From NCBI GenBank assembly GCA_030691735.1, contig JAUYDS010000079.1, positions 905 through 64,904 on the forward strand: 64,000 nucleotides of DNA, given 5' to 3'. Below, one piece after another: positions 47,353-61,990 of the stretch. Numbering within the stretch: the stretch's first letter is position 1; each line of letters starts with the position of its first letter. The notes beneath the pieces are model-generated. The model did no database searches. It was not told the DNA's origin and worked only from the letters and a program-made list of their open reading frames with translations. A program made the translations under genes and the position numbers. Source of the stretch: Candidatus Aminicenantes bacterium (lineage in GTDB: Bacteria > Acidobacteriota > Aminicenantia > Aminicenantales > UBA4085).

Positions 47353-47458
47353 GTCAAGGGACGAGCCTTCGGCTCGCCACTCGCCCGTGGCTTGTATCCA
47401 CGGGCGAGTACGGCGGAAGTGGACCCCCGGGCAATGCCCGGGGCCCCGGCCGCCGTGG
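47353..47458 (+). repeat. GC-rich palindromic mini-element, long form (copy C), filling the thiolase/Mo-hydroxylase intergenic gap
   Basis: It is near-identical to copy B, including the CACTCGCCCGTGG...CCACGGGCGAGTA hairpin module. Confidence 0.8.
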
Positions 47459-47468
47459 AGAAATAAAA

Positions 47469-48371: not shown

Positions 48372-51226
48372 CCCAAGACAAAGAATCCCATCGCACTGTC
48401 GTCCTCAGAGTCAACGGCGAAGATCATGCCGTGGCCGTTTACGATGAGGAAACTCTGCTGGACGTCCTCAGGGACAAGCTGAGACTGACCGGGACAAAAA
48501 AAGGCTGCGGCCGGGGCGTGTGCGGAGCCTGCACCGTCCTGGTGGACGGGGAGCCAAGGAACGGCTGTCTGCTGCTCGCCCTTTCCTGCCGGGGAAAAGA
48601 GATTACAACCATCGAAGGGATCGCCCGGGGAGGAGAACTCCACCCTCTTCAGCGCTCCTTCATCAACCACGGCGCCGTCCAATGCGGGTACTGCACGTCG
48701 GGGATGATCCTCAGCGCCTATGCCCTGATCCAACGCCGTCCGGATCCGACCGTCGAGGAAATCAAAGAGGCCCTCTCCGGAAACCTCTGCCGCTGCACGG
48801 GCTATGTCCGGATCATCGAGGCCGTTCGAGACTGGAAGAACCACCTGACGTCCGCCGGCCCAGAAACTTCCTCTCCAAACCTCGAGGAGCTCGCCGTCGT
48901 CGGGAAAAGCCTTCCGCGGGTGGATGCCGCCGACAAGGTCAGCGGCCGGGCCAAGTACGCGGCCGATCTTCATTTCGAAAACGTGCTCCACGGCAAGATT
49001 CTGACTTCTCCCATCGCCCACGGCCGGATCAGATCCATCGACACCAGCCGGGCGAAAGCCCTCCCGGGCGTCAAGCTGGTTCTCACCGGCCGGGACGTTC
49101 CGGATATCACCTATGGGATCAGCCCTCCCCGCTATGACGAGCATGTGCTGGCCAAGGACAAGGTGCGCCATGTCGGAGACGAGGTGGCGGCCGTCATCGC
49201 CGTGGACGAACGGACGGCGGAGAGGGCCTTGAGGCTCATCGACGTCGATTACGAAGAGCTCCCGGGGGTCTTCAATCCCAAGGAGGCGATGAGGGAAGGA
49301 GCCCCGCTGCTCCATGAACAATATAAAAGGAACATCAACACCCTTGTCGATCAGCATTTCGGTGACGTCGAAAAAGGCTTTGCCGAGGCCGACTACATCC
49401 GAGAGGAAGAATTCGTAGGGAACCACGTCTACCAGAGCCCCATCGAACCGCACGCCGCGATCGCCGACTGGGAAAACGACGGGACGACGCTCGTGCTGTA
49501 CAGCTCGACCCAGGTCCCTCATTACCTTCATTACACGGTCGCCCGGGTGCTGGACATGCCTTTGGGCCGGATCCGGGTCATCCGTCCCCCGGTGGGAGGA
49601 GGATTTGGAGGCAAGCTCGATACGACGCCTCTCGACCTGATCGCTTCGATCGCCTCGAAGAGGCTGGGCAGACCGGTCAAGATGGTCTACAGCCGGAAAG
49701 AGATGTTCCTCCACGGCCGGGGGCGGCACAAACAGCACATGAAGTTCAAGATCGGCGTAAAAAAAGACGGGACACTGACGGCTGTCGAAAGTCGGATCTA
49801 TCTCGACGGAGGGGCGTATACGTCCTATGGGGCGATCACGGCCTATTACGCCGGAAGCATGATTCCGACCCTGTACCGCATGCCGAACTACCGCTACCAG
49901 GGCTTCCGGGTCATGACCAACAAGCCCGCTTGCGGAGCCATGCGCGGCCACGGGGTTCCCCAACCGCGGTTCGCTTTCGAGTCCCTCCTGAGCATGATCG
50001 CCGACGATCTGGGCCTCGACCCCATCGAGATCCGCCTTCGCAATGCGGTCGGTCCCAACACCCGGACCTGCAACGACCTGGAGATCGGAAGCTGCGCCTT
50101 TCCCCAGACCTTGACGGCGGTGAGGGAAAAATCCGGCTGGTCGCAGAAGTATGGCCGGCTTCCTTCGGGAAAAGGAATCGGCGTCGGCTGCGGCGGTTTT
50201 GTCTCGGGAGCCGGCTACTCTAAATATAGGGGTCAGGTCCAGCTGAGCTCGGAAAAAAAGCTGGAGCCCTTCCAGAAAAAATCGGTCTTTCCCCATTCGA
50301 ACGCCATCGTCAAGATAAGCGAAGACGGGACGGCGGCCGTCCTGCTCATCCTGGCCGCAGAAATCGGGCAAGGCGCCCTGACCGTTCTGACCCAGATCTG
50401 CGCCGAAACTTTAGGGATCGGCTATGGGAGAGTCCGGATCCGGACGGAGGACACGGATATCAGTCCTCTCGACCTCGGGGCTTATTCCTCGCGCACGACC
50501 TTGATGGGGGGAAACGCGGTCGTCATGGCCAGCAAGGATCTCCTCCGGAAGCTGTTTTCCATTGTCGCCGGGATATGGGGTTCCGAGCCCAGCGATCTGC
50601 GGGCCGGAAACGACCGGATTTTTGACTGCCGGAACAGGTCGAAAAGCATCGACTGGGCGGAAGCGGCCCGGAAGTACTTCAACGACCACGGCCCCCTGGT
50701 CGGGACGGGCTGGTACAAGCCTCCGGATAACTTGGGCGGAGACTACAAAGGAGCCGCCGTAGGAACCAGTCCAGCCTTTTCTTTTTCGAGCGCCGTGTGC
50801 GAATGCCGCGTCGACCTGGAGACCGGCCAGGTGAAGCTGGAACGGTTCGTCGATTATCATGACTGCGGTACGCCTATCAACCCCCAGGCGGTCCACGGCC
50901 AGGTGGAGGGAGCGGTGGTCATGGGCGCGGGAGAAACCCTGATGGAGGATGTCGTCTACGATTCCCGGGGAAATATCCTCAATCCCAATCTCCACGACTA
51001 TCTGCTCATGACCATCGGGGACGCGCCGGAGATCTTCAGCGGTCTCGTCGATTCCTACGAGCCCGCGGGGCCTTACGGAGCCAAGGAGGTCGGCGAAGGC
51101 GCGACCCTCCCCGTCCTGGCGGCCGTGGCTCACGCTATCGCCAACGCGACCGGGGTATGGATCAAGGAACTGCCCATCACCCCGGAGAAAATCCTGAGAG
51201 CCCTTCGGGAAGCCGGAAGGCCCTGA
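48368..51226 (+). CDS. Fused [2Fe-2S] (CoxS-like) and molybdopterin-binding large (CoxL/HcrA-like) subunit of a molybdenum hydroxylase; TTG start overlapping the upstream stop
   Basis: The N-terminus has the 2Fe-2S motifs GCGRGVCGACTV and CRCTGYVRII. Downstream is the aldehyde oxidase/xanthine dehydrogenase a/b hammerhead and MoCo-binding domains of about 780 aa. Confidence 0.8.
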   Translation: MTQDKESHRTVVLRVNGEDHAVAVYDEETLLDVLRDKLRLTGTKKGCGRGVCGACTVLVDGEPRNGCLLLALSCRGKEITTIEGIARGGELHPLQRSFINHGAVQCGYCTSGMILSAYALIQRRPDPTVEEIKEALSGNLCRCTGYVRIIEAVRDWKNHLTSAGPETSSPNLEELAVVGKSLPRVDAADKVSGRAKYAADLHFENVLHGKILTSPIAHGRIRSIDTSRAKALPGVKLVLTGRDVPDITYGISPPRYDEHVLAKDKVRHVGDEVAAVIAVDERTAERALRLIDVDYEELPGVFNPKEAMREGAPLLHEQYKRNINTLVDQHFGDVEKGFAEADYIREEEFVGNHVYQSPIEPHAAIADWENDGTTLVLYSSTQVPHYLHYTVARVLDMPLGRIRVIRPPVGGGFGGKLDTTPLDLIASIASKRLGRPVKMVYSRKEMFLHGRGRHKQHMKFKIGVKKDGTLTAVESRIYLDGGAYTSYGAITAYYAGSMIPTLYRMPNYRYQGFRVMTNKPACGAMRGHGVPQPRFAFESLLSMIADDLGLDPIEIRLRNAVGPNTRTCNDLEIGSCAFPQTLTAVREKSGWSQKYGRLPSGKGIGVGCGGFVSGAGYSKYRGQVQLSSEKKLEPFQKKSVFPHSNAIVKISEDGTAAVLLILAAEIGQGALTVLTQICAETLGIGYGRVRIRTEDTDISPLDLGAYSSRTTLMGGNAVVMASKDLLRKLFSIVAGIWGSEPSDLRAGNDRIFDCRNRSKSIDWAEAARKYFNDHGPLVGTGWYKPPDNLGGDYKGAAVGTSPAFSFSSAVCECRVDLETGQVKLERFVDYHDCGTPINPQAVHGQVEGAVVMGAGETLMEDVVYDSRGNILNPNLHDYLLMTIGDAPEIFSGLVDSYEPAGPYGAKEVGEGATLPVLAAVAHAIANATGVWIKELPITPEKILRALREAGRP

Positions 51227-51334: not shown

Positions 51335-51400
51335 TAAAAAGCGCCGCTCAGTATTAACCCTGAATATACCCCGGGCTTCAGCCCGGGGAGTCGAATGGGT

Positions 51401-52264: not shown

Positions 52265-52327
52265 GCGGCGGTTCCTCGCCAGAAAGAATACTCGATTCGG
52301 GGGATAAAGATAAAGGAAAAAAATCGC

Positions 52328-52356
52328 TTGACAACAGGCCTCAGTCCCTATATTTT
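52328..52356 (+). promoter_or_regulatory. Putative sigma70 promoter TTGACA-17-TATTTT for the HTH-GNAT gene
   Basis: TTGACA lies at 52328..52333, followed by a 17-nt spacer and TATTTT at 52351..52356, directly abutting the palindrome. Confidence 0.4.
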
Positions 52357-52384
52357 CATGGTAACCAATATTGGTTACCATGAA
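52355..52384. promoter_or_regulatory. 30-bp perfect palindromic operator TTCATGGTAACCAAT|ATTGGTTACCATGAA
   Basis: Both strands are identical (hence both strands translate FMVTNIGYHE). It lies between the -10 element and the ATG at 52385, in a divergent intergenic region. Confidence 0.65.
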
Positions 52385-53038
52385 ATGAAAAGCGACATTC
52401 GACTGAAAATCGTCAGGATCCTTATCGATACTCCCGAGGGACTTCCGCTGGAGACTCTGGCCGCGGCCCTGGGCTTGACCCGCCATACGGTCGCCAAATA
52501 CGTGGAGGTCCTGAGGGCGGAGGGAAAGATCCGCTTCACTAAAATCGGGCGGTCGAAGCTTTGGAAAAGCATTTCCGCCCAAGTCGGTGTTCGGTTCCTG
52601 CGGCTGGACGATCTGGAAGACATTCTCCGCCTCGAGGAGAGGATCGAGAAGGCCGGTCCCTTTCCGTCAAAATCCCGGCTTGAGTCCTTGAGGGAGACGG
52701 TGGCCTACCATCTGCGGCAGGATGACCCGTTCCTGACCTTGGGGGCCGAAATCGACGGAAAGCTCGTAGGGTATGTCCTCGCCGAAGTCAGGCTTTGGGA
52801 GTTCGGGTCCGGGGAAAAAACCGGCTGGATCAAAGTCCTGGGCGTAGATCCGGATTGCCAGGGCATGGGGATCGGCCGCAAGCTGGGCGAAACCCTGCTC
52901 GGCCATTTCGCCAGGAAGGACGTCAAGCGGGTCAGGACTCTGGTCAACTGGTTTGACGGGCCCCTCATCTCCTATTTCCGGTCTCTAGGTTTTGACATCC
53001 TCAACATGATTCCCCTGGAGAAGGAGTTGACTAAATGA
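52385..53038 (+). CDS. Transcriptional regulator: N-terminal winged-helix HTH fused to a C-terminal GNAT acetyltransferase domain
   Basis: The N-terminus has LETLAAALGLTRHTVAKYVEVLRAEGKI (wHTH). The C-terminus has VLGVDPDCQGMGIGRKLGE (GNAT motif A). Confidence 0.7.
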   Translation: MKSDIRLKIVRILIDTPEGLPLETLAAALGLTRHTVAKYVEVLRAEGKIRFTKIGRSKLWKSISAQVGVRFLRLDDLEDILRLEERIEKAGPFPSKSRLESLRETVAYHLRQDDPFLTLGAEIDGKLVGYVLAEVRLWEFGSGEKTGWIKVLGVDPDCQGMGIGRKLGETLLGHFARKDVKRVRTLVNWFDGPLISYFRSLGFDILNMIPLEKELTK

Positions 53039-54159
53039 TGGACAGCTTCAAGGAATGGTACGAGGGCCGGCATCAGTACGCCCGGGAGTGGAAAAAACGG
53101 ACGGGGAAAAAGGTCCTCGGCTATTTCTGCACCTATGTCCCGGAGGAGATCCTCATCGCGGCCGATGTTCTTCCAGTCAGGATCCTCGGCAGCCACGAGC
53201 CCCAGGACGTGACCGAGCCCCATATCTTCGGGATGTTTTGTCCCTTCTGTCGGGACTGTCTCGCCCAGGGGCTCCAGGGAAGATACGAGTACCTCGACGG
53301 AATCATGATCAGCCAGAGCTGCCTTCATATCCGCCAGGCTTACACCTCCTGGAAGCTCCATGTCCCCGTGGAGTTCAGCTACTACCTGCCCATGCCCCAC
53401 CATCTTCAAAGCCGGCGAGCCCTCCCCTATTTGACGGGCGAGCTGGAGGCTTTCAAGAAGGCCGTGGAGGAATGGACGGGGACGACGATCACGGAGGAGG
53501 GGCTGAACCGCGGCATCGAGGTCATGAATCGGTCCCGGCGGCTGACCCGGGCGCTCTATGAGCTGCGCCGGAGGCCCGACCCGCCGGTGACGGGTTTAGA
53601 GTCCATGCGCGTGGTCGCGGCGAGCCAGATGGTCGATAAAAGGGAATACAACGAAGCCCTTCAGGAAACGATCGACCGGTTGCCGGAGCGGGCGGGAAGA
53701 GACGGGTCCCGGGTCCGGCTGATGATGCTGGGCAGCGAGAACGACGATGTCGCCTTCGTCGGAATGGTCGAATCCTTGGGAGCGATCTTCGTCATCGACG
53801 ACCACTGCACGGGGAGCCGCTATTTCTGGAACGAAGTCTTGACGGACCGGAAGCCGATGGAGTCCATCGCCGCCCGGTACGTCGACCGGGTTCCGTGCCC
53901 GACCAAGGACTGGCCGGAGCGGAAGCGGATCGAACACATCCGACAACTGGCCAAGGATTGGAACGTCCAGGGGGCGATTGTCGTCCAGCAGAAGTTCTGC
54001 GATCCTCATGAGATCGATATTCCCGCCATCATCAAGGCTCTTAAACAGGACGGCGTGCCCGCCCAAGTCCTGGAGATTGACGTGACGGTCCCCGTCGGTC
54101 AGTTCAAGACCCGGATCGAGGCGTTTTTGGAAATCCTGAAGCAAGAAGACCTGTTTTGA
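53035..54159 (+). CDS. Class I benzoyl-CoA reductase / 2-hydroxyacyl-CoA dehydratase-family subunit (BzdN/BcrC-like)
   Basis: It belongs to the HgdB/BcrC family (374 aa; N-terminus [40 protein letters not shown]). It is the first gene of a C-B-ATPase-ATPase-fdx module. Confidence 0.7.
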
Positions 54160-54169
54160 GGAGGCCTCG

Positions 54170-55480
54170 ATGAAGCCGACCTATAAAACCGAGCCGCTCC
54201 GATGCTGGGCCAAGGCCAAGGAGATCCGCCAAGATTACTATAAGAATTACGCCCTGGCCCATGAGAAGGGCGGCCTGCGCTGGGCCGGGGGAGCGTGGTC
54301 GTTCGACGCCATCCCCGCAGGCCTCGGCGATGACGTCTACCCCCTGACGGGCGAGCCGTACGCGGCCGCGATCGCCTGGGACAAGGAATTCGCCCTCCAG
54401 TGCCACGAGGCGGTCGAAAAAGCCGGATACGCCCGCGATCTATGCTCCTACATGCGCAACTACTGGGGGTCGATCATCCTCAATAAATATGTCTTCGGCG
54501 GAGAATTTCCGAAGCCGGACTTCATCTGGCAAGATCATATCTGTTGCTCTCATGCCAAATGGTATCAAGTGGTCCGGGATCTGGAAGGGAAGGATATCCC
54601 GATGTACTGCCTCGACGTCAGCGTCGGCCCTTACGAGGAGCTCACGGACAACCGGCTCGAATACGTCGTCGGCCAGATGCACGACGGGATCGCCTGGCTG
54701 GAGAAGGTGACCGGCCGGCGCTTCGATGACGAAAAGCTCATCCGGGCCGTGTCCAACCATTGCCGCTCCACCGCCCTCTGGGCCGAGGTCTGCGCTCTGA
54801 ACAAAGCCATCCCCGCTCCGCTGGACGAGAAGACGATGTATTCGCTCTATGTCCTCGGAACCCTGCAGAAGAGCAGCGGCATCGTAGCGGACTTTACCGA
54901 GGAGCTCCGGGACGAAGTCAAGGATCGGGTCGCCAGAGGGATCGCCGCGGTTCCCAACGAACGGTGCCGGGTCATGTCTGACACCCAGCCTCCCTGGGCC
55001 TTCTTGAAGATCTTCCGATACCTGGAGCAATACGGCTGCGTCTCGGTCGGCTCCCTCTATACGTTCGGCCTGATCGGGCAATGGGAGGTCAAGGCCGACG
55101 GGACCTGGGGCGCCCGGACGACGCCGGAGCAGCAGGGAATCGTGATCCGGGACCGGGATCAGGCTCTTCGAATCCTGGCCGACTGGGAATTGAAAAAACC
55201 GGAATGGCAGCATTTTTATTCTCCCCAAGCCAAAAGCGAGATGATGATCCGGATCGCCAAGGAATGGACGCTCGACGGCGTCCTCCTCCATTACAACCGG
55301 GGCTGCGAAGGCTTGAGCCTGGGAATCGCCGAAAACCGGCTGGCCATGATCAAGGCGGGCTACCCGGTCATCGTTTTCGAGGGCAATATGGGGGACGAGA
55401 GGGAGTTCGACGAAATCCAGACTCTGAAACGGATCGACGCTTTTATGGAAAGCCTGGGGTTCGAAAAGGATTCCCGATGA
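54170..55480 (+). CDS. Class I benzoyl-CoA reductase family subunit (BzdO/BcrB-like)
   Basis: It belongs to the HgdA/BcrB family (436 aa) with conserved Cys residues. It directly follows the BzdN-like gene. Confidence 0.7.
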
Positions 55481-55529
55481 CTCATCGCCGGGAGCGAGGA
55501 GGCGGGCCGGGAAAGTCTTGCGGGCCAAC

Positions 55530-55597
55530 GTCAAGGGACGAGCCTTCGCGGCGGAAGTGGACCCCCGGGCAAAGCCCGGGGCCCCGGCCGCCGTGGC
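55530..55597 (+). repeat. GC-rich palindromic mini-element, short form (copy D), upstream of the ATPase gene
   Basis: GTCAAGGGACGAGCCTTCGCGGCGGAAGTGGACCCCCGGGCAAAGCCCGGGGCCCCGGCCGCCGTGG. Confidence 0.8.
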
Positions 55598-55634
55598 CCC
55601 GGCCGCCGCTGCCCCGGATGGACTGGAGGAAGGC

Positions 55635-56414
55635 ATGAATGTCGCCGGAGTGGATTGCGGGGCGAAGTCGGCCAAGGTTCTCATCCTGAGGGACGGGGAG
55701 GTCTTGGCTAGAAGTGCGGTCCTCAGCGGATTCGATCCGAAGGCCGCGGCGGCCCAGGCCTTGGACGAGGCCTTGATACAGGCCGGACTCTCGAGGAGCG
55801 ACCTGGCCCATGTGACGGCCACCGGAACAGGGAAGAACGAGGTGGATTTCGCCTCCTCCTCGATCACCGAGGTCGGCGCCGATGCCCGGGCCGCAAACGC
55901 CCTGTTTCCGGCCGCCCGGACCGTGATCGACATCGGGGCGGAGGAAGGACGGGCGATCCGGATCAGCCCGCAGGGAAAGGTGATCGATTTCGCCATCAAC
56001 GAGAAGTGCGCCGCCGGAGCCGGCACGTTCACCGAAACCATGGCCAGGACGCTCGAGGTCGCCGTGGAAGACATGGGCCCGCTCTCTCTCAAGTCTCAGA
56101 ACGCCGTCCCGATGAACGCCCAATGCGCCGTCTTCGCCGAGTCCGAGGTGGTCAGCCTCATCCACGCCAAGCATTCCAAGGAGGATATCGCCCGGGCGGT
56201 TCACGACGCCATCGCGGACAGGATCGCGTCCATGGCTCGGAAGATCGGGATCGAGAAGGATATCGTCCTCGTCGGCGGGGTGGCAAAGAACGTGGGCTTC
56301 GTGACCTCCTTGAAACGAAATCTGAAGGAAGAGCTGTTCATCCCCCCTTACCCCGAATATTCCTGCGCCCTGGGAGCCGCCCTCACGGCCGCCGAACGGG
56401 CCAAAGGAGTCTGA
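55635..56414 (+). CDS. BadF/BadG/BcrA/BcrD-type ATPase (benzoyl-CoA reductase electron-activating subunit, BzdP/Q-like)
   Basis: An ATG at 55635 has a GGAGGA RBS. The motifs GVDCGAKSAKVLIL, AINEKCAAGAGTF and LVGGVAKNVGFV match the acetate/sugar-kinase ATPase fold. The tool ORF start at the TTG 55518 inside the repeat was rejected. Confidence 0.75.
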   Translation: MNVAGVDCGAKSAKVLILRDGEVLARSAVLSGFDPKAAAAQALDEALIQAGLSRSDLAHVTATGTGKNEVDFASSSITEVGADARAANALFPAARTVIDIGAEEGRAIRISPQGKVIDFAINEKCAAGAGTFTETMARTLEVAVEDMGPLSLKSQNAVPMNAQCAVFAESEVVSLIHAKHSKEDIARAVHDAIADRIASMARKIGIEKDIVLVGGVAKNVGFVTSLKRNLKEELFIPPYPEYSCALGAALTAAERAKGV

Positions 56415-56415
56415 C

Positions 56416-57288
56416 ATGGCCACAGAATATTGGCGCTGGCCCGAATCCCGGTGGACCTCGCCGGAGATCGATTGGAAAGCCGGCCGCATCGTCACCGCCG
56501 GAATCGACGTCGGTTCGGTGAGCTCCCAGGCCGTGGTCATGGTCGACGGCGCGCTGTTCTGCTACGGCAGCCTGCGGACCGGGTCTAACAGCCCGGAAAG
56601 CGCCCAACGGGCGATGGATTTTGCCCTGGCCGAAACCGGCTTGGTCCTTGCCGACATCCACTATATCGTCGGGACGGGATACGGCCGGGTCAATATCTCC
56701 TTCGCCCAGAGGGCCCTGACCGAGATCGCCTGCCATGCCCGGGGCGCGAATTTCATGTACGGGCCGACGGTCAAGACCATCCTGGACATGGGCGGGCAGG
56801 ATTGCAAGGCCATCCGCTGCGACGCCAAGGGGAAAGTGACCAACTTCCTGATGAACGACAAATGCGCGGCCGGGACGGGCCGGGGGATGGAAGTGTTTGC
56901 CGACCTTTTGTCCGTCCCCATCGCCGACATGGGGCGTATGTCGTTCGAGGTGGAGGCCGAGCCCGAGCCCGTCAGCTCCACCTGCGTCGTGTTCGCCAAA
57001 TCCGAGGCCGTGGGCCTCTTGAGGAAAGGCTGGCCGAAGGAAAAGGTCCTGGCCGCTTATTCCTCGGCCATGGCCCACCGCGTCGTCGAGCTTTTGCAGC
57101 GCATCCAGGTAGAAGAGGATTTCGCCGTCACCGGCGGCATCGCCAAGAACGAAGGCGTGGTCAAGAGAATCGAAAAGGAGCTGAAAATAAAGGCCCTCGA
57201 ACCCAAGTTCGACACCCAGATCGCGGGCGCCCTGGGCGGCGCGTTATTCGCTAAGGCCCTCGTCGAGAAGGACAGGGGGCTCCGCTAG
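56416..57288 (+). CDS. Second BadF/BadG/BcrA/BcrD-type ATPase subunit
   Basis: The motifs GIDVGSVSSQAVVM, MNDKCAAGTGRGME and VTGGIAKNEGVV are present. It is distinct from the upstream ATPase, consistent with a heterodimeric BCR alpha/delta pair. Confidence 0.75.
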   Translation: MATEYWRWPESRWTSPEIDWKAGRIVTAGIDVGSVSSQAVVMVDGALFCYGSLRTGSNSPESAQRAMDFALAETGLVLADIHYIVGTGYGRVNISFAQRALTEIACHARGANFMYGPTVKTILDMGGQDCKAIRCDAKGKVTNFLMNDKCAAGTGRGMEVFADLLSVPIADMGRMSFEVEAEPEPVSSTCVVFAKSEAVGLLRKGWPKEKVLAAYSSAMAHRVVELLQRIQVEEDFAVTGGIAKNEGVVKRIEKELKIKALEPKFDTQIAGALGGALFAKALVEKDRGLR

Positions 57289-57289
57289 C

Positions 57290-57577
57290 ATGCTGGCCCA
57301 CTACGGATATAAGGACGGCTCGGGAGAGTATTTCATCGTCGTCGACACGGACAAGTGCGACGGATGCGGCCGCTGCGTCTCCGCCTGTCCCTACGGAGTT
57401 TTCGAAATCGGCGAGGACGAAAACGACCCCTTCCGCGAGACGGTCGTGGTCAAAGTCTCCGAATCCCACCGTAAGAAAATCAAATACAGCTGCGCGCCCT
57501 GCAAACCCGTCTCCGGAAAAAAATCCCTGCCCTGCCTCGAAAGCTGTGCTCCGGGCGCGATCGGTCACTCCTGGTGA
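57290..57577 (+). CDS. 2x[4Fe-4S] ferredoxin of the benzoyl-CoA reductase type (Fdx/BzdM-like)
   Basis: The 95-aa product has the Cys patterns CDGCGRCVSACP and the atypical CAPC-x10-C-x3-C. Confidence 0.75.
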   Translation: MLAHYGYKDGSGEYFIVVDTDKCDGCGRCVSACPYGVFEIGEDENDPFRETVVVKVSESHRKKIKYSCAPCKPVSGKKSLPCLESCAPGAIGHSW

Positions 57578-60198
57578 GAGGACAGAACCAAGTGGCCTCC
57601 CGATCGCCGGGATCGGGCCGGAAATTCCTCCTGGACGGGAAGGCCGTCGAGGCCGCGGAGGGCCGGACCATCCTGCAGGCCGCTCTCGCCGCCGGGATCT
57701 ATATTCCCCATCTCTGCCATCATCCGGACCTGCCGCCCTTCGAGACGATTCCCCCCCTGGAGACATGCTACCGGGGTTCCGAGGTTTTCCGTTCGGCAGG
57801 GCGCGGTCACACTTATACGGGCTGCGGGCTCTGCTTGGTCAAGATCTCCGGTCGCGAGGAGCCGGTCCTCTCCTGCACGCACGTCGCCGAGGACGGGATC
57901 GAGGTTGTGACCTCGACCCCGGAGATCGCGTCCGCTCGTCAGAAAAAACTGGCCGCGCTGATGATCCGCCATCCGCACGCTTGTCTGACCTGCGCCCAGC
58001 GGGAAGGATGCAGCTTGACCCAGTGCTCGTCCAACGTCCCCGAGGCGGAGAGGTGCTGTCCCCGGTTCGATCATTGTGAGCTGAGAAGCCTGGCCGAGTA
58101 CGTCGGCCTCAGCCAGGACCTTTCCCGATATCGTTTCCGCGGTGAGGTCGCGGAAATGCAAGGGCCCCTCTTTATCCGGGACTACAACCTCTGCGTCGGC
58201 TGCCTGCGGTGCGTCCGGGTCTGCGAATCCGTGATCGGCGCCAAGGCCTTGGGGTACGTATCGGCCGCGGACGGAGAGATTATGGTGGGCGCCTCGAAGC
58301 CTTCCTGGGATGAGGCGGGGTGCCGGTCCTGCGGCGCGTGCGTCGAGGTTTGCCCGACCGGCGCGCTGCGCGATAAAAACCTCAAGCCCGGCGACCGGAA
58401 AGCGTCTCTAATCGCCTGCGTCTCCGGCTGCCCCTTGGCCATGGATGTCCCCTCCTATCTGAACTTCATCGCTCAGGGCAGACCGGCAGAAGCGGCGGCC
58501 GTCATCCGGCGGAGCGTTCCACTCGCCCTGACGCTTGGATACATCTGCTCCCATCCCTGCATGACCGAATGCCGCCGGGGGAAGATCGATGAGTCCATCG
58601 CCATCTGCGAGCTCAAGAGGTTCGCCCTGGAGCAAGCAGACTCGCCGGTCAAGGGACGAGCCTTCGCGACGGAAGTGGACCCCCGGGCAAAGCCCGGGGC
58701 CCCGGCCGCCGTGGAAAAGGCGGAACGCAAGCCGACGGGAAAGAAGGTCGCCGTCATCGGAGGGGGACCGGCCGGCCTCGTGGCCGCTTCTTATCTGGCG
58801 AATGGCGGCCACTCCATCAAGGTCTTTGAAGCGAGTTCGGAGCCGGGAGGAATGCTGCGCTGGGCGATCCCCGAATACCGGCTCCCGCGGAGCGTCGTCG
58901 CTGGAGAGATCGAACTTGTCAAGGCTCAGGGGGTCGAGATTCTGACCGGGGCACGGGTTGACAGAGAGACGTTCCTCAGGGATTTCGGCCCCGGCTCCTG
59001 GGACGCGGTTTTTCTCGCGGTCGGCGCTCAGGAGAGCAGAGGGATCGACATCGAAGGTCAAGACCTGGAGGAAGTCGGTAAGGGGGTGGAGTTTCTCCGG
59101 GAGGCCAAAGCGGGAACGATCGAGAAAATCAGCGGAAGAGTCGTGGTCATCGGCGGGGGAAACGTCGCCCTGGACGCGGCCATGACGGCCCTCCGGCTCG
59201 GAGCTTCCACTGTCGAGCTGGCCTGCTTAGAAAGCCGGGACGAGATGCCGGCGTTCGCTTGGGATGTCCGGGAAGCCGAGGAGGACGGGGTAGTGCTGAA
59301 TCCAGGTTGGGGGCCCTCCCGGATCGTCGGACGGGAAGGCCGGGCCGCCGCGGTCGAGCTTATCGGTTGTGTTTCGGTCTTCGATGAACAAGGAAATTTC
59401 CGCCCGAAATTCGATCCCGCTCGACGGAAGACTCTCCCGGCCGATCGCGTCGTCTTGGCCGTCGGGCAGCGGCCCGATCTTTCGTTTCTTCCTCCGGATC
59501 TGGGAGTCCGGTTGACGAAGGCGGGGACAATCCAGGTCAGCCCCCTGAATCTCCAAACGAGCGTGCCTTGGATCTTCGCCGGAGGCGAGGTTACTCTCGG
59601 ACCGTCCTCGGCCGTGGAATCCATGGCCTTGGGACGGCAGGCCGCCTCGTCGATCGATCGTTTCTTGGGAGGTGAGGGGCTGGGCTCGGCGCCGAACGGG
59701 GCCGGGAAGGCCGGCCGGGGAGACCTGTGGCTGGGCCATGATCCCGGTTTCGGCTCGAGGCGCAGAGTGCCCAGCCGCCGCCTCCTTCGAGCGGAACGCC
59801 TGAAATCTTTCGACCTCGTCCAGGGAAGCTATGAGCCGGACGAGGCCCGCCGGGAAGCAGGCCGGTGCTTGAGGTGCGAACTCAGGTTCGCCCTTTCGCC
59901 CGTCTGCCTTCCTCCTGAAAAATGGATAGAGTTCCGCCTGGATTCGATGTCCGAGGTTCCCGAAGTGGAGGGCGTTTTTCAGCTTTCAGATGAGCGGAGA
60001 AACGTGATTTTCATCGCCGGAACGCCCAACCTCAGGCGGACCCTTCTCGAACACCTGTCCGCCGGTTCGGAAGCCCATTATTTTCTCTATGAAAAGAACC
60101 CGATGTTCACCAAAAGGGAAAGCGAATGGATTCAGCAGTTCCTTCAGAAACACGGCCGCCTTCCGCCGAAGAACGAAGAGGTCGACGAGTTGTTCTAG
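57574..60198 (+). CDS. Fused Fe-S / FAD-NAD(P)H oxidoreductase (NuoG-like 2Fe-2S and 4Fe-4S N-terminus, GltD/SudA-like C-terminus); candidate ferredoxin-regenerating BzdV-like enzyme; GTG start
   Basis: The N-terminus has 2Fe-2S fer2_4 (CHHPDL...CGLCLV) and several CxxCxxCxxxCP motifs. The C-terminus has KKVAVIGGGPAGLVAASYLA and a pyridine-nucleotide disulfide oxidoreductase fold. The linker contains repeat copy E in-frame. Confidence 0.7.
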   Translation: MRGQNQVASRSPGSGRKFLLDGKAVEAAEGRTILQAALAAGIYIPHLCHHPDLPPFETIPPLETCYRGSEVFRSAGRGHTYTGCGLCLVKISGREEPVLSCTHVAEDGIEVVTSTPEIASARQKKLAALMIRHPHACLTCAQREGCSLTQCSSNVPEAERCCPRFDHCELRSLAEYVGLSQDLSRYRFRGEVAEMQGPLFIRDYNLCVGCLRCVRVCESVIGAKALGYVSAADGEIMVGASKPSWDEAGCRSCGACVEVCPTGALRDKNLKPGDRKASLIACVSGCPLAMDVPSYLNFIAQGRPAEAAAVIRRSVPLALTLGYICSHPCMTECRRGKIDESIAICELKRFALEQADSPVKGRAFATEVDPRAKPGAPAAVEKAERKPTGKKVAVIGGGPAGLVAASYLANGGHSIKVFEASSEPGGMLRWAIPEYRLPRSVVAGEIELVKAQGVEILTGARVDRETFLRDFGPGSWDAVFLAVGAQESRGIDIEGQDLEEVGKGVEFLREAKAGTIEKISGRVVVIGGGNVALDAAMTALRLGASTVELACLESRDEMPAFAWDVREAEEDGVVLNPGWGPSRIVGREGRAAAVELIGCVSVFDEQGNFRPKFDPARRKTLPADRVVLAVGQRPDLSFLPPDLGVRLTKAGTIQVSPLNLQTSVPWIFAGGEVTLGPSSAVESMALGRQAASSIDRFLGGEGLGSAPNGAGKAGRGDLWLGHDPGFGSRRRVPSRRLLRAERLKSFDLVQGSYEPDEARREAGRCLRCELRFALSPVCLPPEKWIEFRLDSMSEVPEVEGVFQLSDERRNVIFIAGTPNLRRTLLEHLSAGSEAHYFLYEKNPMFTKRESEWIQQFLQKHGRLPPKNEEVDELF
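58648..58713 (+). repeat. GC-rich palindromic mini-element, short form (copy E), in-frame inside the BzdV-like gene
   Basis: GTCAAGGGACGAGCCTTCGCGACGGAAGTGGACCCCCGGGCAAAGCCCGGGGCCCCGGCCGCCGTGG is translated as [22 protein letters not shown]. Confidence 0.8.
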
Positions 60199-60201: not shown

Positions 60202-61224
60202 CTACATCGTGACGATGGCCCGGATGAGCGATTCTTCTCCGGCCCGGAGAAGGGCAAAGGCGTCGTTGATGCGCTCCAGGGGAAAGGAATGGGTCACCAG
60301 CTCATCAACCTTGATTTTTCCCATTCGGACGAGCTCCAGGAGTCTGGGATAAAGGTACGGCGGGCAGCCCAGGGTCCCCGCGATTTCCAATTCCCGAAAC
60401 ATGATCCGGCCGGCATTGAAGGTGACATTCTGGTCGGAGTAGCCCATGATCAAAAGCTTGCCGCCTGTCCTCAATACCGAGAAGGCGGTTTGCATGATGG
60501 AGGGATTCCCGACCGCGTCGACCGCCACATGGACGCCGCCGCCGCTCAGTTTTCTTATCTTTTTGGCGATATCCTCGCTGGGGGTCAGGACCTCGTCGGC
60601 CCCGAAATTTTTCGCGAATTCCAGTTTTTTGGGGATCACATCGACGCCGATGACGAAAGCGCCGAGGGCCTTGGCGACCTGGACGGCATTCAATCCCAGT
60701 CCTCCGCAGCCGAAGACCGCGACCTTGTCCCCCGGCCTGACCCTTCCCCTGTTCAAAAGGGCGTGGAAAGGCGTCGAGACTGCGTCCGAAATAACGCTTC
60801 CCTTCTCGATGTCGATTTCGGGGGGCAGGGGAATGACGTCCTTGGCCGGCGCGACCACGTATTCGGCATAGGCTCCGTGGACGTGGTTTCCGAGCATGAT
60901 CATGTTGGCGCAGATGTTTTCTCGTCCCGTCCTGCACATTTCACAGGCGCCGCAGGTGAAGACGGGGGGGACGAGCACTCGGTCCCCCTGCCCGAAGCCG
61001 CGGACACCTTCGCCCAGGGATTCGATCGTCCCCGAGACCTCGTGGCCGAGGATGATGGGGGGGGTCTTGAAGGTAGGCACGCCGTGGTCGATATAATGCA
61101 GGTCCGTATGGCAGACCCCGCAGGCGCGGACCTTGACCAAGACCTCTCCCCTCCCGGGGGAAGGGACGTTCACATCTTCGATTCTCAAAGGTTGTTGGGG
61201 TCCGTAAAAAAGCGCCGCTTTCAT
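60202..61224 (-). CDS. Zinc-dependent medium-chain alcohol dehydrogenase (candidate 6-hydroxycyclohex-1-ene-1-carbonyl-CoA dehydrogenase, Had/BzdX-like)
   Basis: The catalytic-zinc motifs GVCHTDLH and GHEVSG, the structural-zinc Cys cluster CGACEMC and the Rossmann motif GCGGLG are present. Confidence 0.75.
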   Translation of the reverse strand: MKAALFYGPQQPLRIEDVNVPSPGRGEVLVKVRACGVCHTDLHYIDHGVPTFKTPPIILGHEVSGTIESLGEGVRGFGQGDRVLVPPVFTCGACEMCRTGRENICANMIMLGNHVHGAYAEYVVAPAKDVIPLPPEIDIEKGSVISDAVSTPFHALLNRGRVRPGDKVAVFGCGGLGLNAVQVAKALGAFVIGVDVIPKKLEFAKNFGADEVLTPSEDIAKKIRKLSGGGVHVAVDAVGNPSIMQTAFSVLRTGGKLLIMGYSDQNVTFNAGRIMFRELEIAGTLGCPPYLYPRLLELVRMGKIKVDELVTHSFPLERINDAFALLRAGEESLIRAIVTM

Positions 61225-61243
61225 GATGCCTCCTTTTGGGGGA

Positions 61244-61990
61244 TTATCGATTTTTCCAGGTCGGCTTACGTTTTTCGAGAAAGGCGGTGAGCCCCTCGAG
61301 GGCGTCTTCCGTCTTCATCAATTCGTCGAGATAAATGCGGTTCACGGTCTCGAGGTTGTCTTTAAGCTTAGGCAAGTGGACGTGAGACGCTTTTTTGGCA
61401 AGGCGGACGGCCGCGGAGCTCAACTTCGTCAAAGGGAGAAGGAATTGGTGGGCCCTCTCGAAGAGGATATCCCTCTCGAAGGTTCGATTGACGATGCCGA
61501 GGCGTTCCAGCTCTTCGGCCTTGACGCTCTCGCCGGAAAAGATGATGTGATTCGAGATTTTGGAGGGGAAAAGAACGGGATACAGGGCGCAGGCCGCCGG
61601 GGGAAAGACCCCGAGCTTGATTTCCGGCTGCCCGAAATCCGCGCCCTTTTCGGCCAGGAGCAGGTCGGAGCAAAAGGCGATTTCGCAGCCGCCGCCGAAC
61701 GCTCCGCCGTGGACGACGGAGACCACGAGACCTGGAAATTCGAAGAATCCTAAGATGAGCTCGGAGAAAAGGCGGATCATCTCTTCGACCTTGTCCGGAA
61801 GATGGTCCTTGACATCGAGCCCGGCGCAGAACATCTTTCCGCTTCCCTTCAGAACGGCGACCTTGACCCGGCTGTCGCGGGCGAAGATCCTCGCCAAATC
61901 CCGGAGGGTCTCCGCCTTGAGGACATTGACCGGAGGAGCGTTGAAGTCGAGATAGAGGATGCCGTCTTTTTCTTCCCGCAGCAGGGTCAT
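61244..61990 (-). CDS. Enoyl-CoA hydratase/crotonase family (candidate cyclohexa-1,5-dienecarbonyl-CoA hydratase, Dch/BzdW-like)
   Basis: The 248-aa crotonase fold with VVHGGAFGGGCEIAFCSDL is present. Confidence 0.7.
   Translation of the reverse strand: MTLLREEKDGILYLDFNAPPVNVLKAETLRDLARIFARDSRVKVAVLKGSGKMFCAGLDVKDHLPDKVEEMIRLFSELILGFFEFPGLVVSVVHGGAFGGGCEIAFCSDLLLAEKGADFGQPEIKLGVFPPAACALYPVLFPSKISNHIIFSGESVKAEELERLGIVNRTFERDILFERAHQFLLPLTKLSSAAVRLAKKASHVHLPKLKDNLETVNRIYLDELMKTEDALEGLTAFLEKRKPTWKNR

What the first reader, a model, noticed from the sequence alone, without database searches (positions are those of the whole stretch)
53035..60198. Azoarcus-type class I (ATP-dependent) benzoyl-CoA reductase module with ferredoxin and a fused ferredoxin:NAD(P)H oxidoreductase
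The gene order BzdN-like, BzdO-like, two distinct BadF/BcrA/BcrD-type ATPases (259 and 290 aa), a BCR-type 2x[4Fe-4S] ferredoxin and a large Fe-S/GltD-like oxidoreductase reproduces bzdNOPQMV. Together with bamA (40523), had/dch-like genes (60202-61990) and a beta-oxidation set, it marks a complete anaerobic benzoyl-CoA route. Two distinct ATPases argue against a 2-hydroxyacyl-CoA dehydratase, which uses a single HgdC. The oxidoreductase carries a NuoG-like 2Fe-2S N-terminus, which is unusual.
Basis: partly seen in the sequence, partly recalled or inferred. Interest (0 to 1): 0.5.

Follow-up and report, generated by a model that had tools for sequence, protein, structure and literature searches.

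The report
Bzd-type benzoyl-CoA reductase gene cluster
An uncultured Aminicenantes bacterium carries an intact copy of the known six-gene unit (bzdNOPQMV) that uses ATP and ferredoxin to de-aromatise benzoyl-CoA; it is an ordinary member of a very widespread family, and the only new-looking part is a possible regulator and operator in front of it.

Summary
In detail: 53035-60198 holds six co-directional, tightly packed genes. They match the reference bzdNOPQMV de-aromatisation module of Aromatoleum sp. CIB one for one: BzdN 53 %, BzdO 67 %, BzdP 48 %, BzdQ 66 %, ferredoxin BzdM 50 % and BzdV 37 % identity over the full length. Every catalytic, cluster-binding and benzoyl-pocket residue named for the CIB BzdNO crystal structure is conserved, except Ser44, which is Gly.

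- The NuoG-like 2Fe-2S N-terminus is not unusual. Authentic BzdV (849 aa) has the same architecture, and 48 of 53 related loci carry the same N-O-P-Q-Fd-V order.
- A complete route is not shown. BamA/Oah passes its curated cut-off, but the Had- and Dch-like genes do not, and the window holds no AMP-forming ligase.

The contig is a Candidatus Aminicenantes MAG, and class I reductase genes in Aminicenantes were already reported in 2019. This is therefore a new member of a known kind.

Extras found:
- An HTH-GNAT (BzdT-like) gene lies behind a conserved promoter and a 20-bp palindrome present only in loci that carry this fusion.
- A dispersed 67-nt repeat is inserted in frame in bzdV.
- A 4-hydroxybenzoyl-CoA-reductase-like molybdenum enzyme lies next door.

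The parts
52328..52356 (+). sigma-70-like promoter TTGACA-17-TATTTT in front of the operon
   Evidence: 10 of 12 matches. The CTTGACAA box and a TATxxT box are conserved in 12 related loci.
52360..52379 (.). perfect 20-bp palindrome GGTAACCAATATTGGTTACC, candidate operator
   Evidence: It occurs once in the window (0 expected). It is found once per locus, directly upstream of the HTH-GNAT gene, in 15 loci that carry the fusion (a 16th, L008, has a one-base variant) and in none of the other loci.
52385..53038 (+). HTH (winged helix) + GNAT acetyltransferase, BzdT-like; probable regulator
   Evidence: Pfam HTH_11 and Acetyltransf_1. The GNAT domain is 37 % identical to CIB BzdT. The start is set to ATG 52385 (217 aa) by homologue length and promoter position. 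The 547-aa ORF from 51395 is an artefact that overlaps a minus-strand gene.
53035..54159 (+). bzdN, [8Fe-9S] double-cubane subunit
   Evidence: TIGR03190 475 bits against a cut-off of 453.8. 53 % identity to PDB 8s02_B. Seven shared Cys, plus R53, R267, R290, H330, S239 and Q324 conserved.
54170..55480 (+). bzdO, catalytic [4Fe-4S]-OH2 subunit that binds benzoyl-CoA
   Evidence: TIGR03191 717 bits against 448.6. 67 % identity to 8s02_A. C95, C128, C380, E65, H131, W46, Y97, Y298, Q274, L302 and L383 are all conserved; S44 is Gly.
55530..55596 (+). copy of a dispersed 67-nt repeat in the bzdO-bzdP spacer
   Evidence: The independent assembly L001 ends inside it.
55635..56414 (+). bzdP, ATPase subunit
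   Evidence: BcrAD_BadFG and TIGR00241. 48 % identity to CIB BzdP against 32 % to BzdQ. Both bridging-cluster Cys are conserved.
56416..57288 (+). bzdQ, ATPase subunit
   Evidence: TIGR03192 432 bits against 380.2. 66 % identity to CIB BzdQ against 33.5 % to BzdP. Both Cys are conserved.
57290..57577 (+). bzdM, 2x[4Fe-4S] ferredoxin
   Evidence: 50 % identity over the full length to CIB BzdM, with 8 aligned Cys and shared ends MxAxYGYKDGSGEY...PGAIxHSW.
57574..60198 (+). bzdV, a NuoG-like Fe-S domain fused to an NfnB/GltD-like FAD/NADPH module and a C-terminal DUF7508 domain
   Evidence: Pfam. 37 % identity over the full length to CIB BzdV (849 aa), 26 shared Cys. AlphaFold model pLDDT 83.6. 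The best structural matches are the bifurcating subunits of NfnABC, StnABC and NfnI.
58648..58714 (+). second copy of the 67-nt repeat, inserted in frame in bzdV (encodes [22 protein letters not shown])
   Evidence: It is absent from all homologues, including one 84 % identical (BLASTP). The modelled loop 358-382 has pLDDT below 50.
60202..61224 (-). Zn-dependent alcohol dehydrogenase, Had/BzdX-like
   Evidence: The best NCBIfam hit is TIGR03201 at 249.7 bits, below the cut-off of 338.65. 37 % identity to CIB BzdX.
61244..61990 (-). crotonase, Dch/BzdW-like
   Evidence: The best NCBIfam hit is TIGR03189 at 159.6 bits, below the cut-off of 292.5. 41 % identity to CIB BzdW.
40523..41665 (+). [quoted passage not shown]
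   Evidence: TIGR03200 560.5 bits against 464.45. 66 % identity to CIB BzdY.
48236..51226 (+). molybdenum subunit with an N-terminal 2x[2Fe-2S] part, 4-hydroxybenzoyl-CoA-reductase-alpha-like (FAD subunit gene just upstream, ending 48371)
   Evidence: TIGR03194 890.7 bits (cut-off 994.55), against 586 bits for XdhA; Pfam. It neighbours bzd in 8 other loci.

Best explanation

Proposed electron path. BzdV, an NfnB-like FAD/NADPH module fused to a NuoG-like Fe-S wire, reduces the 2x[4Fe-4S] ferredoxin BzdM. BzdM reduces the [4Fe-4S] cluster bridging the BzdP/BzdQ ATPase heterodimer. ATP hydrolysis lowers the potential of that electron and passes it, in a transient complex, to BzdNO. In BzdNO the [8Fe-9S] double cubane of BzdN relays the electron to the aqua-[4Fe-4S] cluster of BzdO, which reduces benzoyl-CoA to cyclohexa-1,5-diene-1-carbonyl-CoA. 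The diene is then hydrated, oxidised and ring-opened by the Dch-like, Had-like and BamA enzymes, and beta-oxidised by the upstream gene set.

The operon is probably transcribed from the promoter at 52328 and controlled at the palindrome 52360-52379, most simply by the HTH-GNAT protein encoded by its first gene.

What is shown: homology, gene order, conservation of active-site and cluster ligands, and conservation of the module and the operator across genomes. What is inferred: substrate, activity, electron path, the NADPH dependence of BzdV, and the regulation.
For: - NCBIfam equivalog models bzdN, bzdO and bzdQ all score above their curated cut-offs, while the Bcr-type, HadB/HadC and double-cubane models score far below theirs.
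- The window proteins are 67 % and 53 % identical to the crystallised Aromatoleum sp. CIB BzdO and BzdN (PDB 8s02). MbdO scores 56 bits and HadB 107 bits, against 690 bits for BzdO.
- All residues named in Fuchs et al. 2025 (PMC11971306) are conserved: the cluster ligands C95, C128 and C380; the acid/base pair E65 and H131; the ring pocket W46, Y97, L302 and L383; and the thioester binders Y97, Y298 and Q274. In BzdN, R53, R267, R290, H330, S239 and Q324 are conserved. The BzdO residues are invariant in 93 BzdO sequences.
- The CIB bzd operon (L087) has the same genes. The window proteins are reciprocal best matches to N, O, P, Q, M, V, T, W, X and Y.
- The bridging-cluster cysteines of both ATPases, 8 ferredoxin cysteines and 26 BzdV cysteines are conserved.
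- The order N-O-P-Q-Fd-V holds in 48 of 53 sufficiently long loci from many phyla. BamA lies within 10 kb in 16 of 80 loci.
- BamA in the window passes its equivalog cut-off.
- The literature already reports the same module in Chloroflexi (PMC5736913), Hermodarchaeota (PMC8163825) and Aminicenantes MAGs (PMC6472368; their E29_bin47 is locus L013, 84 % BzdO identity).
Against: - There are no biochemical or expression data for this organism.
- BzdN clears its cut-off only narrowly (475 against 453.8 bits).
- Ser44 of CIB BzdO, a hydrogen-bond partner of Glu65, is Gly here. This applies to the whole environmental clade, where position 47 becomes Ser/Thr and position 125 becomes Asp.
- The Had- and Dch-like proteins score below their equivalog cut-offs.
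- The window holds no AMP-forming benzoate-CoA ligase.
- BzdV carries a 22-residue repeat-encoded insertion of unknown effect.
- Related Bzd-like enzymes in N47 and NaphS2 reduce tetrahydronaphthoyl-CoA rather than benzoyl-CoA (PMC12016498). I could not obtain those sequences for comparison.
- An ATP-consuming class I enzyme is energetically awkward for a presumed strict anaerobe, a point discussed in PMC6472368.
Confidence: 0.88

Rival explanations
1. The module is a BZD-type aryl-CoA reductase with a physiological substrate other than benzoyl-CoA, such as a substituted benzoyl-CoA or a partly reduced bicyclic aryl-CoA like 5,6,7,8-tetrahydro-2-naphthoyl-CoA. It would use the same ferredoxin and BzdV supply chain.
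For: The thn operons of N47 and NaphS2 encode bzdNOPQ-like subunits, a ferredoxin and a 'BzdV protein'. The Ser44Gly / Ala47Ser / Thr125Asp differences lie next to the active site. A 4-hydroxybenzoyl-CoA-reductase-like enzyme, an amidohydrolase_2 and a PanE-like reductase nearby hint at substituted aromatic substrates.
Against: All residues contacting the benzoyl ring and the thioester in the CIB structure are identical here and invariant in 93 sequences. BamA, which acts on the monocyclic C7 product, passes its equivalog cut-off and recurs next to the module in 16 loci. BzdO identity to the benzoyl-CoA enzyme is 67 %.
Confidence: 0.08
2. The genes encode a 2-hydroxyacyl-CoA dehydratase (HgdAB, HadBC or FldBC type) with its activator, used in amino-acid fermentation.
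For: Both large subunits belong to Pfam HGD-D, and the ATPases match TIGR00241 'acyl-CoA dehydratase activase'. The best PDB match of the BzdP-like ATPase is the HadI activator at 200.9 bits.
Against: HadB scores 140.9 bits against a cut-off of 750, and HadC 168.3 against 700. There are two different ATPase genes, each a best match to BzdP or BzdQ. His131, which is Ala in HadB according to PMC11971306, is conserved. BzdN keeps the double-cubane cysteines. A dedicated ferredoxin and BzdV would not be needed by an enzyme that recycles one electron.
Confidence: 0.01
3. The cluster is a decaying or inactive copy: the repeat insertions in bzdV and between bzdO and bzdP have disabled electron supply or operon expression.
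For: A 67-nt repeat sits in frame inside bzdV, and a copy with a GC-rich hairpin sits between bzdO and bzdP.
Against: All six reading frames are intact and of homologue length. The insertion falls in the most variable linker of the family, where other members also vary in length, and is modelled as a disordered surface loop. No T-run follows the hairpin, and the spacer folds no better than shuffled sequence (z = -1.09).
Confidence: 0.04

Closest known systems
bzdNOPQMV de-aromatisation module of Aromatoleum (Azoarcus) sp. CIB (BzdNO structure PDB 8s02; PMC11971306, PMC6678401)
   Same: The six genes are the same and in the same order. Identities are 48-67 % for the four reductase subunits, 50 % for the ferredoxin and 37 % over the full length for BzdV. 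The catalytic and cluster-binding residues are conserved. A GNAT gene (BzdT) and Dch-, Had- and Oah-type genes are associated.
   Different: There are no bzdS, bzdU or bzdR genes. The GNAT gene is first in the operon and fused to an HTH domain, rather than lying between bzdM and bzdV. The downstream genes are scattered, and some lie on the other strand. BzdO has Gly44/Ser47/Asp125 where CIB has Ser44/Ala47/Thr125. BzdV carries a 22-aa insertion. The host is an uncultured Aminicenantes bacterium, not a denitrifying betaproteobacterium.
Thauera-type BcrCBAD and methylbenzoyl-CoA reductase MbdONQP (PDB 9g87, 9gai)
   Same: They catalyse the same overall reaction and belong to the same BCR/HAD radical enzyme family, with two HGD-D subunits and two ATPases.
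   Different: The relationship is only distant. Scores are benz_CoA_red_B 57 bits (cut-off 487), benz_CoA_red_C 142 (421), MbdO 56 and MbdN 105. Those enzymes form permanent heterotetramers, whereas BZD-type modules are thought to associate transiently (PMC11971306).
Tetrahydronaphthoyl-CoA reductase genes thnBCDE with ferredoxin and a BzdV-like oxidoreductase (N47, NaphS2; PMC12016498, PMC6849830)
   Same: They have Bzd-like subunits followed by a ferredoxin and a BzdV-type oxidoreductase.
   Different: The substrate is bicyclic, and the genes sit in a 22-gene thn operon with MaoC-type hydratases that are absent here.
NfnAB, NfnABC and StnABC flavin-based electron-bifurcating transhydrogenases, and AadN of Rhodopseudomonas palustris (PMC9973337)
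   Same: Residues 281-771 of the BzdV-like protein match the NfnB-type module that carries the bifurcating FAD: 9bov_A at 334 bits, and 5jca_L at TM 0.77 with rmsd 2.8 A. AadN shows that an Nfn-type enzyme can feed a benzoyl-CoA reductase.
   Different: BzdV has no NfnA-like or NuoF-like second nucleotide site. Instead it has a NuoG-like [2Fe-2S]/[4Fe-4S] N-terminus and a DUF7508 C-terminus. Bifurcation is untested.
Regulators of benzoyl-CoA reductase operons: BzdR (Aromatoleum; an HTH repressor that binds the PN promoter and is released by the inducer benzoyl-CoA) and BadL/BadM (R. palustris; a GNAT makes acetamidobenzoates that derepress; PMC6191541)
   Same: A DNA-binding function and a CoA-thioester-binding or GNAT function are tied to the reductase operon, and a palindromic site overlaps the promoter.
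   Different: Here the HTH and the GNAT are one polypeptide. The operator sequence GGTAACCAATATTGGTWACC differs from the TGCA repeats bound by BzdR. Neither binding nor a ligand has been shown.

Membership tests
BZD-type class I benzoyl-CoA reductase | BzdO: three Cys ligands of the catalytic aqua-[4Fe-4S] cluster (C95, C128, C380 in CIB) | tested here: met
   They map to C92, C125 and C379 and are invariant in 93 sequences.
BZD-type class I benzoyl-CoA reductase | BzdO: acid/base pair Glu65 and His131 next to the cluster-bound water | tested here: met
   They map to E62 and H128 and are invariant. The second-shell partner Ser44 is Gly41 here and throughout the environmental clade.
BZD-type class I benzoyl-CoA reductase | BzdO: benzoyl pocket (W46, Y97, L302, L383) and thioester hydrogen-bond donors (Y97, Y298, Q274) | tested here: met
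   All are identical and invariant in 93 sequences.
BZD-type class I benzoyl-CoA reductase | BzdN: cysteines and the Arg/His environment of the [8Fe-9S] double cubane | tested here: met
   Seven of nine CIB cysteines are conserved (C36, C73, C76, C100, C263, C293, C327), as are R53, R267, R290, H330, S239 and Q324. The paper text I read does not number the six ligating cysteines.
BZD-type class I benzoyl-CoA reductase | Scores above the curated NCBIfam equivalog cut-offs for bzdN, bzdO and bzdQ | tested here: met
   475 against 453.8, 717.2 against 448.6 and 432.4 against 380.2. No bzdP-specific family was among the matches; BzdP was assigned by its 48 % best match to CIB BzdP.
BZD-type class I benzoyl-CoA reductase | Two different ATPase subunits, each giving two Cys to a bridging [4Fe-4S] cluster | tested here: met
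   Two BcrAD_BadFG genes; aligned Cys columns C125/C164 and C150/C190.
BZD-type class I benzoyl-CoA reductase | A dedicated BzdM ferredoxin and a BzdV oxidoreductase directly downstream | tested here: met
BZD-type class I benzoyl-CoA reductase | ATP- and ferredoxin-dependent reduction of benzoyl-CoA to the 1,5-dienoyl-CoA | not testable with these tools
   This needs an enzyme assay.
2-hydroxyacyl-CoA dehydratase (HadBC, HgdAB) | Equivalog-level similarity to HadB/HadC, and a single homodimeric activator gene | tested here: not met
   140.9 against 750 and 168.3 against 700 bits. There are two distinct ATPase genes.
Thauera-type BCR / MBR | Equivalog-level similarity to BcrB, BcrC, BcrA and BcrD, or to MbdONQP | tested here: not met
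   All Bcr models score far below their cut-offs. MbdO scores 56 bits and MbdN 105 bits.
Benzoyl-CoA lower pathway (Dch-Had-Oah) | Oah/BamA at equivalog level | tested here: met
   TIGR03200 560.5 against 464.45; 66 % identity to BzdY.
Benzoyl-CoA lower pathway (Dch-Had-Oah) | Dch and Had at equivalog level | tested here: inconclusive
   These models are the best hits but score below their cut-offs: 159.6 against 292.5 and 249.7 against 338.65. Identity to BzdW and BzdX is 41 % and 37 %.
Benzoyl-CoA lower pathway (Dch-Had-Oah) | Benzoate-CoA ligase (AMP-forming) present | tested here: not met
   The Pfam and NCBIfam scans of the window's larger ORFs show no AMP-binding protein; the 2840-aa ORF at 2269-10791 was not scanned. 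Only a truncated ADP-forming acyl-CoA-synthetase-like gene lies at 62974-63999. The rest of the genome was not available.
Nfn/Stn-type electron-bifurcating oxidoreductase (for BzdV) | An NfnB-type FAD/NADPH module with two [4Fe-4S] clusters | tested here: met
Nfn/Stn-type electron-bifurcating oxidoreductase (for BzdV) | A second, high-potential acceptor site (NfnA FAD/NAD or NuoF-like FMN/NAD) | tested here: not met
   No such domain is found in the 874-aa protein or in the operon. BzdV may work like Nfn, but I do not file it as Nfn.

The most novel reading that the evidence does not exclude
The first gene of the operon encodes a one-component regulator of a new type. A winged-helix domain binds the conserved 20-bp palindrome GGTAACCAATATTGGTWACC that overlaps the bzd promoter. 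It is fused to a BzdT/BadL-like GNAT domain that senses, or enzymatically processes, an acyl-CoA or aromatic signal, possibly benzoyl-CoA itself. The protein would replace BzdR in Aminicenantes-type and Elusimicrobia bzd operons. A second, independent possibility is that BzdV is a flavin-based electron-bifurcating NADPH:ferredoxin oxidoreductase that partners BZD-type reductases in most lineages that carry them.
Probability: 0.35. Interest if true: 0.55.

Novelty: new member of a known kind. Interest (0 to 1): 0.3.

Why it matters
The result confirms, with structure-based residue checks rather than annotation transfer, that an Aminicenantes MAG carries a BZD-type ATP-dependent benzoyl-CoA reductase with all its known catalytic and cluster-binding residues in place, together with its electron supply chain. 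It also shows that the six-gene module bzdNOPQMV is conserved as a unit across many bacterial and archaeal phyla: 454 species genomes hold a BzdO relative, and the best 80 are 71-85 % identical. This matters for reading aromatic-carbon turnover from sediment and subsurface metagenomes. It also bears on the open question of how strict anaerobes afford an ATP-consuming ring reduction. For enzymology, the strict pairing of BzdV with the reductase makes BzdV the obvious candidate for the still uncharacterised ferredoxin-reducing step. The HTH-GNAT protein and its palindrome give a directly testable regulatory hypothesis.

Tried and rejected
- The 547-aa ORF (51395-53038) and the 298-aa ORF (55518-56414) were rejected as gene models. 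The first runs antisense through a real amidohydrolase_2 gene (51401-52264). The second starts inside a repeat element. Homologues are 217 and 259 aa long.
- The 'unusual NuoG-like N-terminus' claim was rejected after fetching the CIB operon.
- The dehydratase, Bcr-type, Mbd-type and double-cubane-protein readings were rejected on scores.
- I tested whether BzdS might be homologous to the BzdV C-terminus, because both end in ELF in strain CIB. It is not: BzdS-like proteins are separate small CxxC ORFs located 0-3.6 kb downstream of bzdV in about 17 loci (within about 150 nt in most), and they lack the tail.
- I tested whether the hairpin in the bzdO-bzdP repeat acts as a terminator. There is no T-run, and the fold z-score is -1.09.
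- I searched the 87 fetched loci for the repeat and found no copies.
- Fetching the rest of the contig through P0001 failed because it is not on record.
- López-Barragán et al. 2004 could not be read.
- ThnB/ThnC reference sequences could not be obtained, so no tree against tetrahydronaphthoyl-CoA reductases was built.

Full report
**Observation.** Their Pfam content is two HGD-D proteins (374 and 436 aa), two BcrAD_BadFG ATPases (259 aa from ATG 55635, and 290 aa), a 95-aa 2x[4Fe-4S] ferredoxin, and an 874-aa protein. The last combines Fer2_4, a NuoG-type His/Cys 4Fe-4S motif, a 2x4Fe-4S ferredoxin domain, Fer4_20, Pyr_redox_2 and DUF7508. The genes overlap or lie 1-10 nt apart, apart from a 154-nt gap between the second and third. 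The window is a Candidatus Aminicenantes MAG contig: protein P0001 is 100 % identical, comes from NCBI, and sits on a 68,337-bp contig. An independent Logan assembly reproduces 52356-55555 without a mismatch.

**Identity of the reductase.**
- *Curated models.* The NCBIfam equivalog models for bzd-type subunits N, O and Q score above their curated cut-offs: 475 against 453.8, 717 against 448.6 and 432 against 380. The Thauera-type Bcr models, the HadB/HadC dehydratase models and the double-cubane reductase model all score far below theirs.
- *Solved structures.* The PDB holds the catalytic dimer BzdNO of Aromatoleum sp. CIB (8s02). The window proteins match it at 690 and 465 bits, which is 67 % and 53 % identity. 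HadB scores 107 bits, MbdO 56 and MbdN 105.
- *Active site.* I mapped the residues described by Fuchs et al. 2025 (PMC11971306). The following are all identical: the three cysteines of the aqua-[4Fe-4S] cluster; Glu65 and His131; the ring pocket Trp46, Tyr97, Leu302 and Leu383; the thioester binders Tyr97, Tyr298 and Gln274; and Glu381 and Gly382. In BzdN, seven cysteines are conserved, as is the Arg53/Arg267/Arg290/His330/Ser239/Gln324 environment of the [8Fe-9S] cluster.
- *The one difference.* Ser44 is Gly. Across 93 BzdO sequences this is a clade character: betaproteobacteria have Ser44/Ala47/Thr125, and all others have Gly44/Ser-or-Thr47/Asp125. Every catalytic and pocket residue is invariant.

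**Comparison with the reference operon.** I retrieved authentic CIB BzdO (P0121) and its locus (L087). The CIB order is bzdR, N, O, P, Q, M (94 aa), S, T (a 150-aa GNAT), U (PHP), V (849 aa with Fer2_4, Fer4, Fer4_20 and Pyr_redox_2), W, X, Y, Z.
- Each window protein has its best match in the expected CIB protein: N 53 %, O 67 %, P 48 % (against 32 % to Q), Q 66 % (against 33.5 % to P), M 50 % over the full length, V 37 % over the full length, GNAT domain 37 % to BzdT, Had-like 37 % to BzdX, Dch-like 41 % to BzdW, and BamA 66 % to BzdY.
- The two bridging-cluster cysteines of both ATPases, eight ferredoxin cysteines and 26 BzdV cysteines align.
That N-terminus is the canonical BzdV architecture.

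**Distribution.**
- A scan of one genome per species found 454 genomes with a BzdO relative. The best 80 are 71-85 % identical and come from Aminicenantes, KSB1, Zixibacteria, Planctomycetota/Brocadiia, Ignavibacteria, Bacteroidota, Gemmatimonadota, Elusimicrobia, Acidobacteriota and Thermoplasmata. Asgard and Bathyarchaeia proteins appear among the BzdV homologues.
- In 48 of 53 loci with enough downstream DNA the order O-P-Q-ferredoxin-BzdV is kept. BzdN lies directly upstream in 71 of 72 loci.
- BamA at 50 % identity or more lies within 10 kb in 16 loci, often with the same SDR, thiolase and crotonase genes.
- The literature already describes bzdNOPQ with bzdM and bzdV in deep-sea Chloroflexi (PMC5736913), a bcrABCD cluster with a BzdV protein and a ferredoxin in Hermodarchaeota (PMC8163825), and class I reductase genes in Aminicenantes MAGs (PMC6472368). 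One of those MAGs, E29_bin47, is my locus L013.
- The finding is therefore a new member of a known kind.

**How it most likely works.** The chemistry at BzdNO follows from the conserved residues and the CIB structure. An electron activated by ATP hydrolysis at BzdPQ reaches the [8Fe-9S] cluster of BzdN and then the aqua-[4Fe-4S] cluster of BzdO. That cluster donates a hydrogen atom and an electron to the ring. This is inference by homology.

The supply side is less certain. BzdV is called a putative NADPH:ferredoxin oxidoreductase (PMC5658619, PMC6678401). Residues 281-771 match the NfnB-type module that carries the bifurcating FAD in NfnABC, StnABC and NfnI: 334 bits to 9bov_A, and Foldseek TM 0.77 with rmsd 2.8 A to 5jca_L. 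The model has pLDDT 83.6. In R. palustris a fused Nfn homologue, AadN, is needed for benzoate use (PMC9973337). BzdV lacks a second nucleotide site, so bifurcation is possible but unsupported, and I do not file it as Nfn.

**Context and completeness.**
- Upstream on the same strand lie a thiolase, a 3-hydroxyacyl-CoA dehydrogenase, an Acd-like acyl-CoA dehydrogenase, a crotonase, BamA, a second thiolase, a FadB-like protein, an SDR and a third thiolase.
- These are followed by an FAD subunit and a fused 2Fe-2S/molybdopterin subunit. The best model for the latter is 4-hydroxybenzoyl-CoA reductase alpha, at 890.7 bits against a cut-off of 994.55; XdhA scores 586.
- A divergently transcribed amidohydrolase_2 gene follows.
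- Downstream on the minus strand are the Had-like and Dch-like genes (both below equivalog cut-offs), a PanE/ApbA-like reductase and a truncated ADP-forming acyl-CoA-synthetase-like gene.
- The window holds no AMP-forming ligase.
- An aromatic-acid catabolic island is well supported. A complete route is not demonstrated.

**Regulation (new here).**
- The real first gene of the operon is a 217-aa winged-helix + GNAT protein whose stop overlaps the bzdN start.
- In front of it lies TTGACA-17-TATTTT, immediately followed by the perfect palindrome GGTAACCAATATTGGTTACC.
- This arrangement is conserved in the 12 other loci aligned, while the surrounding intergenic DNA is not.
- The palindrome occurs once in the 64-kb window.
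- It occurs once in each of 15 loci that encode the HTH-GNAT fusion and in none of the other 72. A 16th fusion-bearing locus, L008, carries a one-base variant.
- The GNAT part is homologous to BzdT of strain CIB. It recalls BadL of R. palustris, a GNAT whose products derepress the bad operon (PMC6191541).
- I infer an autoregulated repressor with a CoA-thioester-responsive domain. Neither binding nor a ligand has been tested.

**Repeat element.**
- A 67-nt sequence, GTCAAGGGACGAGCCTTCGCGGCGGAAGTGGACCCCCGGGCAAAGCCCGGGGCCCCGGCCGCCGTGG, occurs in the bzdO-bzdP spacer (55530-55596) and at 99 % identity inside bzdV (58648-58714).
- Longer or partial relatives lie at 5725, 5752, 16667 and 47353.
- In bzdV the repeat is in frame. 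It adds 22 residues to the linker between the Fer4_20 and FAD domains.
- The insertion is absent from CIB BzdV and from all homologues, including one that is 84 % identical by BLASTP (86 % in the alignment). It is modelled as a disordered loop.
- The Logan contig ends inside the spacer copy, as expected for a multi-copy repeat.

**Verdict.** The 'unusual' hook is refuted and 'complete route' is unproven. Overall interest is modest. The regulator and its operator, and the role of BzdV, are the parts worth an experiment.

Noticed in passing
window 52328-52379 and 52385-53038; loci L002, L004, L007-L014, L016, L018-L020, L035: A conserved promoter (CTTGACAA ... TATxxT) is followed by a 20-bp palindrome GGTAACCAATATTGGTWACC directly upstream of an HTH-GNAT gene. 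The site is unique in the window and is found only in loci that encode the HTH-GNAT fusion. It is a candidate operator and repressor pair for the bzd operon.
   Followed up: partly
window 55530-55596, 58648-58714, 5725-5934, 16667-16772, 47353-47458: A dispersed, modular GC-rich repeat family occurs in the window, with all copies on the + strand. One copy is inserted in frame in bzdV (22 extra residues) and one lies in the bzdO-bzdP spacer. The repeat is not found in any of the 87 related loci.
   Followed up: partly
window 47256-48371 and 48236-51226: A xanthine-dehydrogenase-family enzyme has its 2Fe-2S (gamma) and molybdopterin (alpha) parts fused. Its best model is 4-hydroxybenzoyl-CoA reductase alpha, at 890.7 bits against a cut-off of 994.55. 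The same pair neighbours bzd clusters in 8 other loci (L011-L014, L034, L035, L044, L052). The FAD subunit resembles XdhB more than HcrB. Its ORF overlaps the start of the 48236 ORF by about 135 nt, so one of the two start codons is probably wrong.
   Followed up: partly
window 62974-63999 (-), cut by the window end: An ATP-grasp_5 / ADP-forming acyl-CoA-synthetase-like gene lies here; its best NCBIfam hit is 4-hydroxybutyrate--CoA ligase at 248 bits. Homologues lie near bzd clusters in 14 other loci. It could be an ATP-sparing aryl-CoA synthetase or an acetate-forming, ATP-yielding enzyme.
   Followed up: no
window 51401-52264 (-): An amidohydrolase_2 family gene is transcribed divergently from the bzd promoter. 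Homologues 60-74 % identical sit in the same place in L008 and L010. The family includes aromatic-acid decarboxylases and hydratases.
   Followed up: no
C-termini of window 53035-54159 and 57574-60198; loci L002-L087: BzdN ends in [DE][DE]DL[FY], sometimes with one further residue after it, in most of 81 sequences. BzdV ends in [DE][DE]LF in 54 of 56. The ferredoxin ends in HSW in 65 of 67. The shared acidic-aromatic tail on BzdN and BzdV may be a docking motif for a common partner.
   Followed up: partly
BzdO residues 41, 44 and 122 (window 54170-55480): Three positions beside the active site co-vary between clades. Betaproteobacteria have Ser44/Ala47/Thr125 (CIB numbering) and all other lineages have Gly44/Ser-or-Thr47/Asp125. 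This suggests the hydroxyl that hydrogen-bonds Glu65 is supplied from a different position.
   Followed up: partly
loci L006, L026, L027, L029, L034, L048, L052, L054, L066, L070-L074, L077, L081, L083: A small (about 70-100 aa) CxxC protein homologous to CIB BzdS lies downstream of bzdV in about 17 loci, within about 150 nt in most and up to 3.6 kb away in one. The window has none, because a minus-strand gene starts 4 nt after bzdV.
   Followed up: partly
window 61987-62949 (-); loci L002, L006, L010-L012, L016, L066, L070, L071, L073, L077: A ketopantoate-reductase-like (ApbA/PanE) NAD(P) oxidoreductase recurs close to bzd clusters in bacteria and in an Asgard archaeon. Its role is unknown.
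   Followed up: no
window 2269-10791: A single 2840-aa ORF with a TTG start lies in a stretch of 67-70 % GC, against about 60 % elsewhere. It contains copies of the dispersed repeat at 5725-5934. It may be a giant protein or several genes read through; I did not examine it.
   Followed up: no
window 20246-20288 and 23289-23331: A 43-nt direct repeat (98 % identical; GACGTGGCTAATCCCCCCTTCTCCCCCCTTTAGTAAAGGGGGG, with a C6/G6 hairpin) flanks the two minus-strand genes at 20319-23178, a GATase-like gene and a cation-efflux gene.
   Followed up: no
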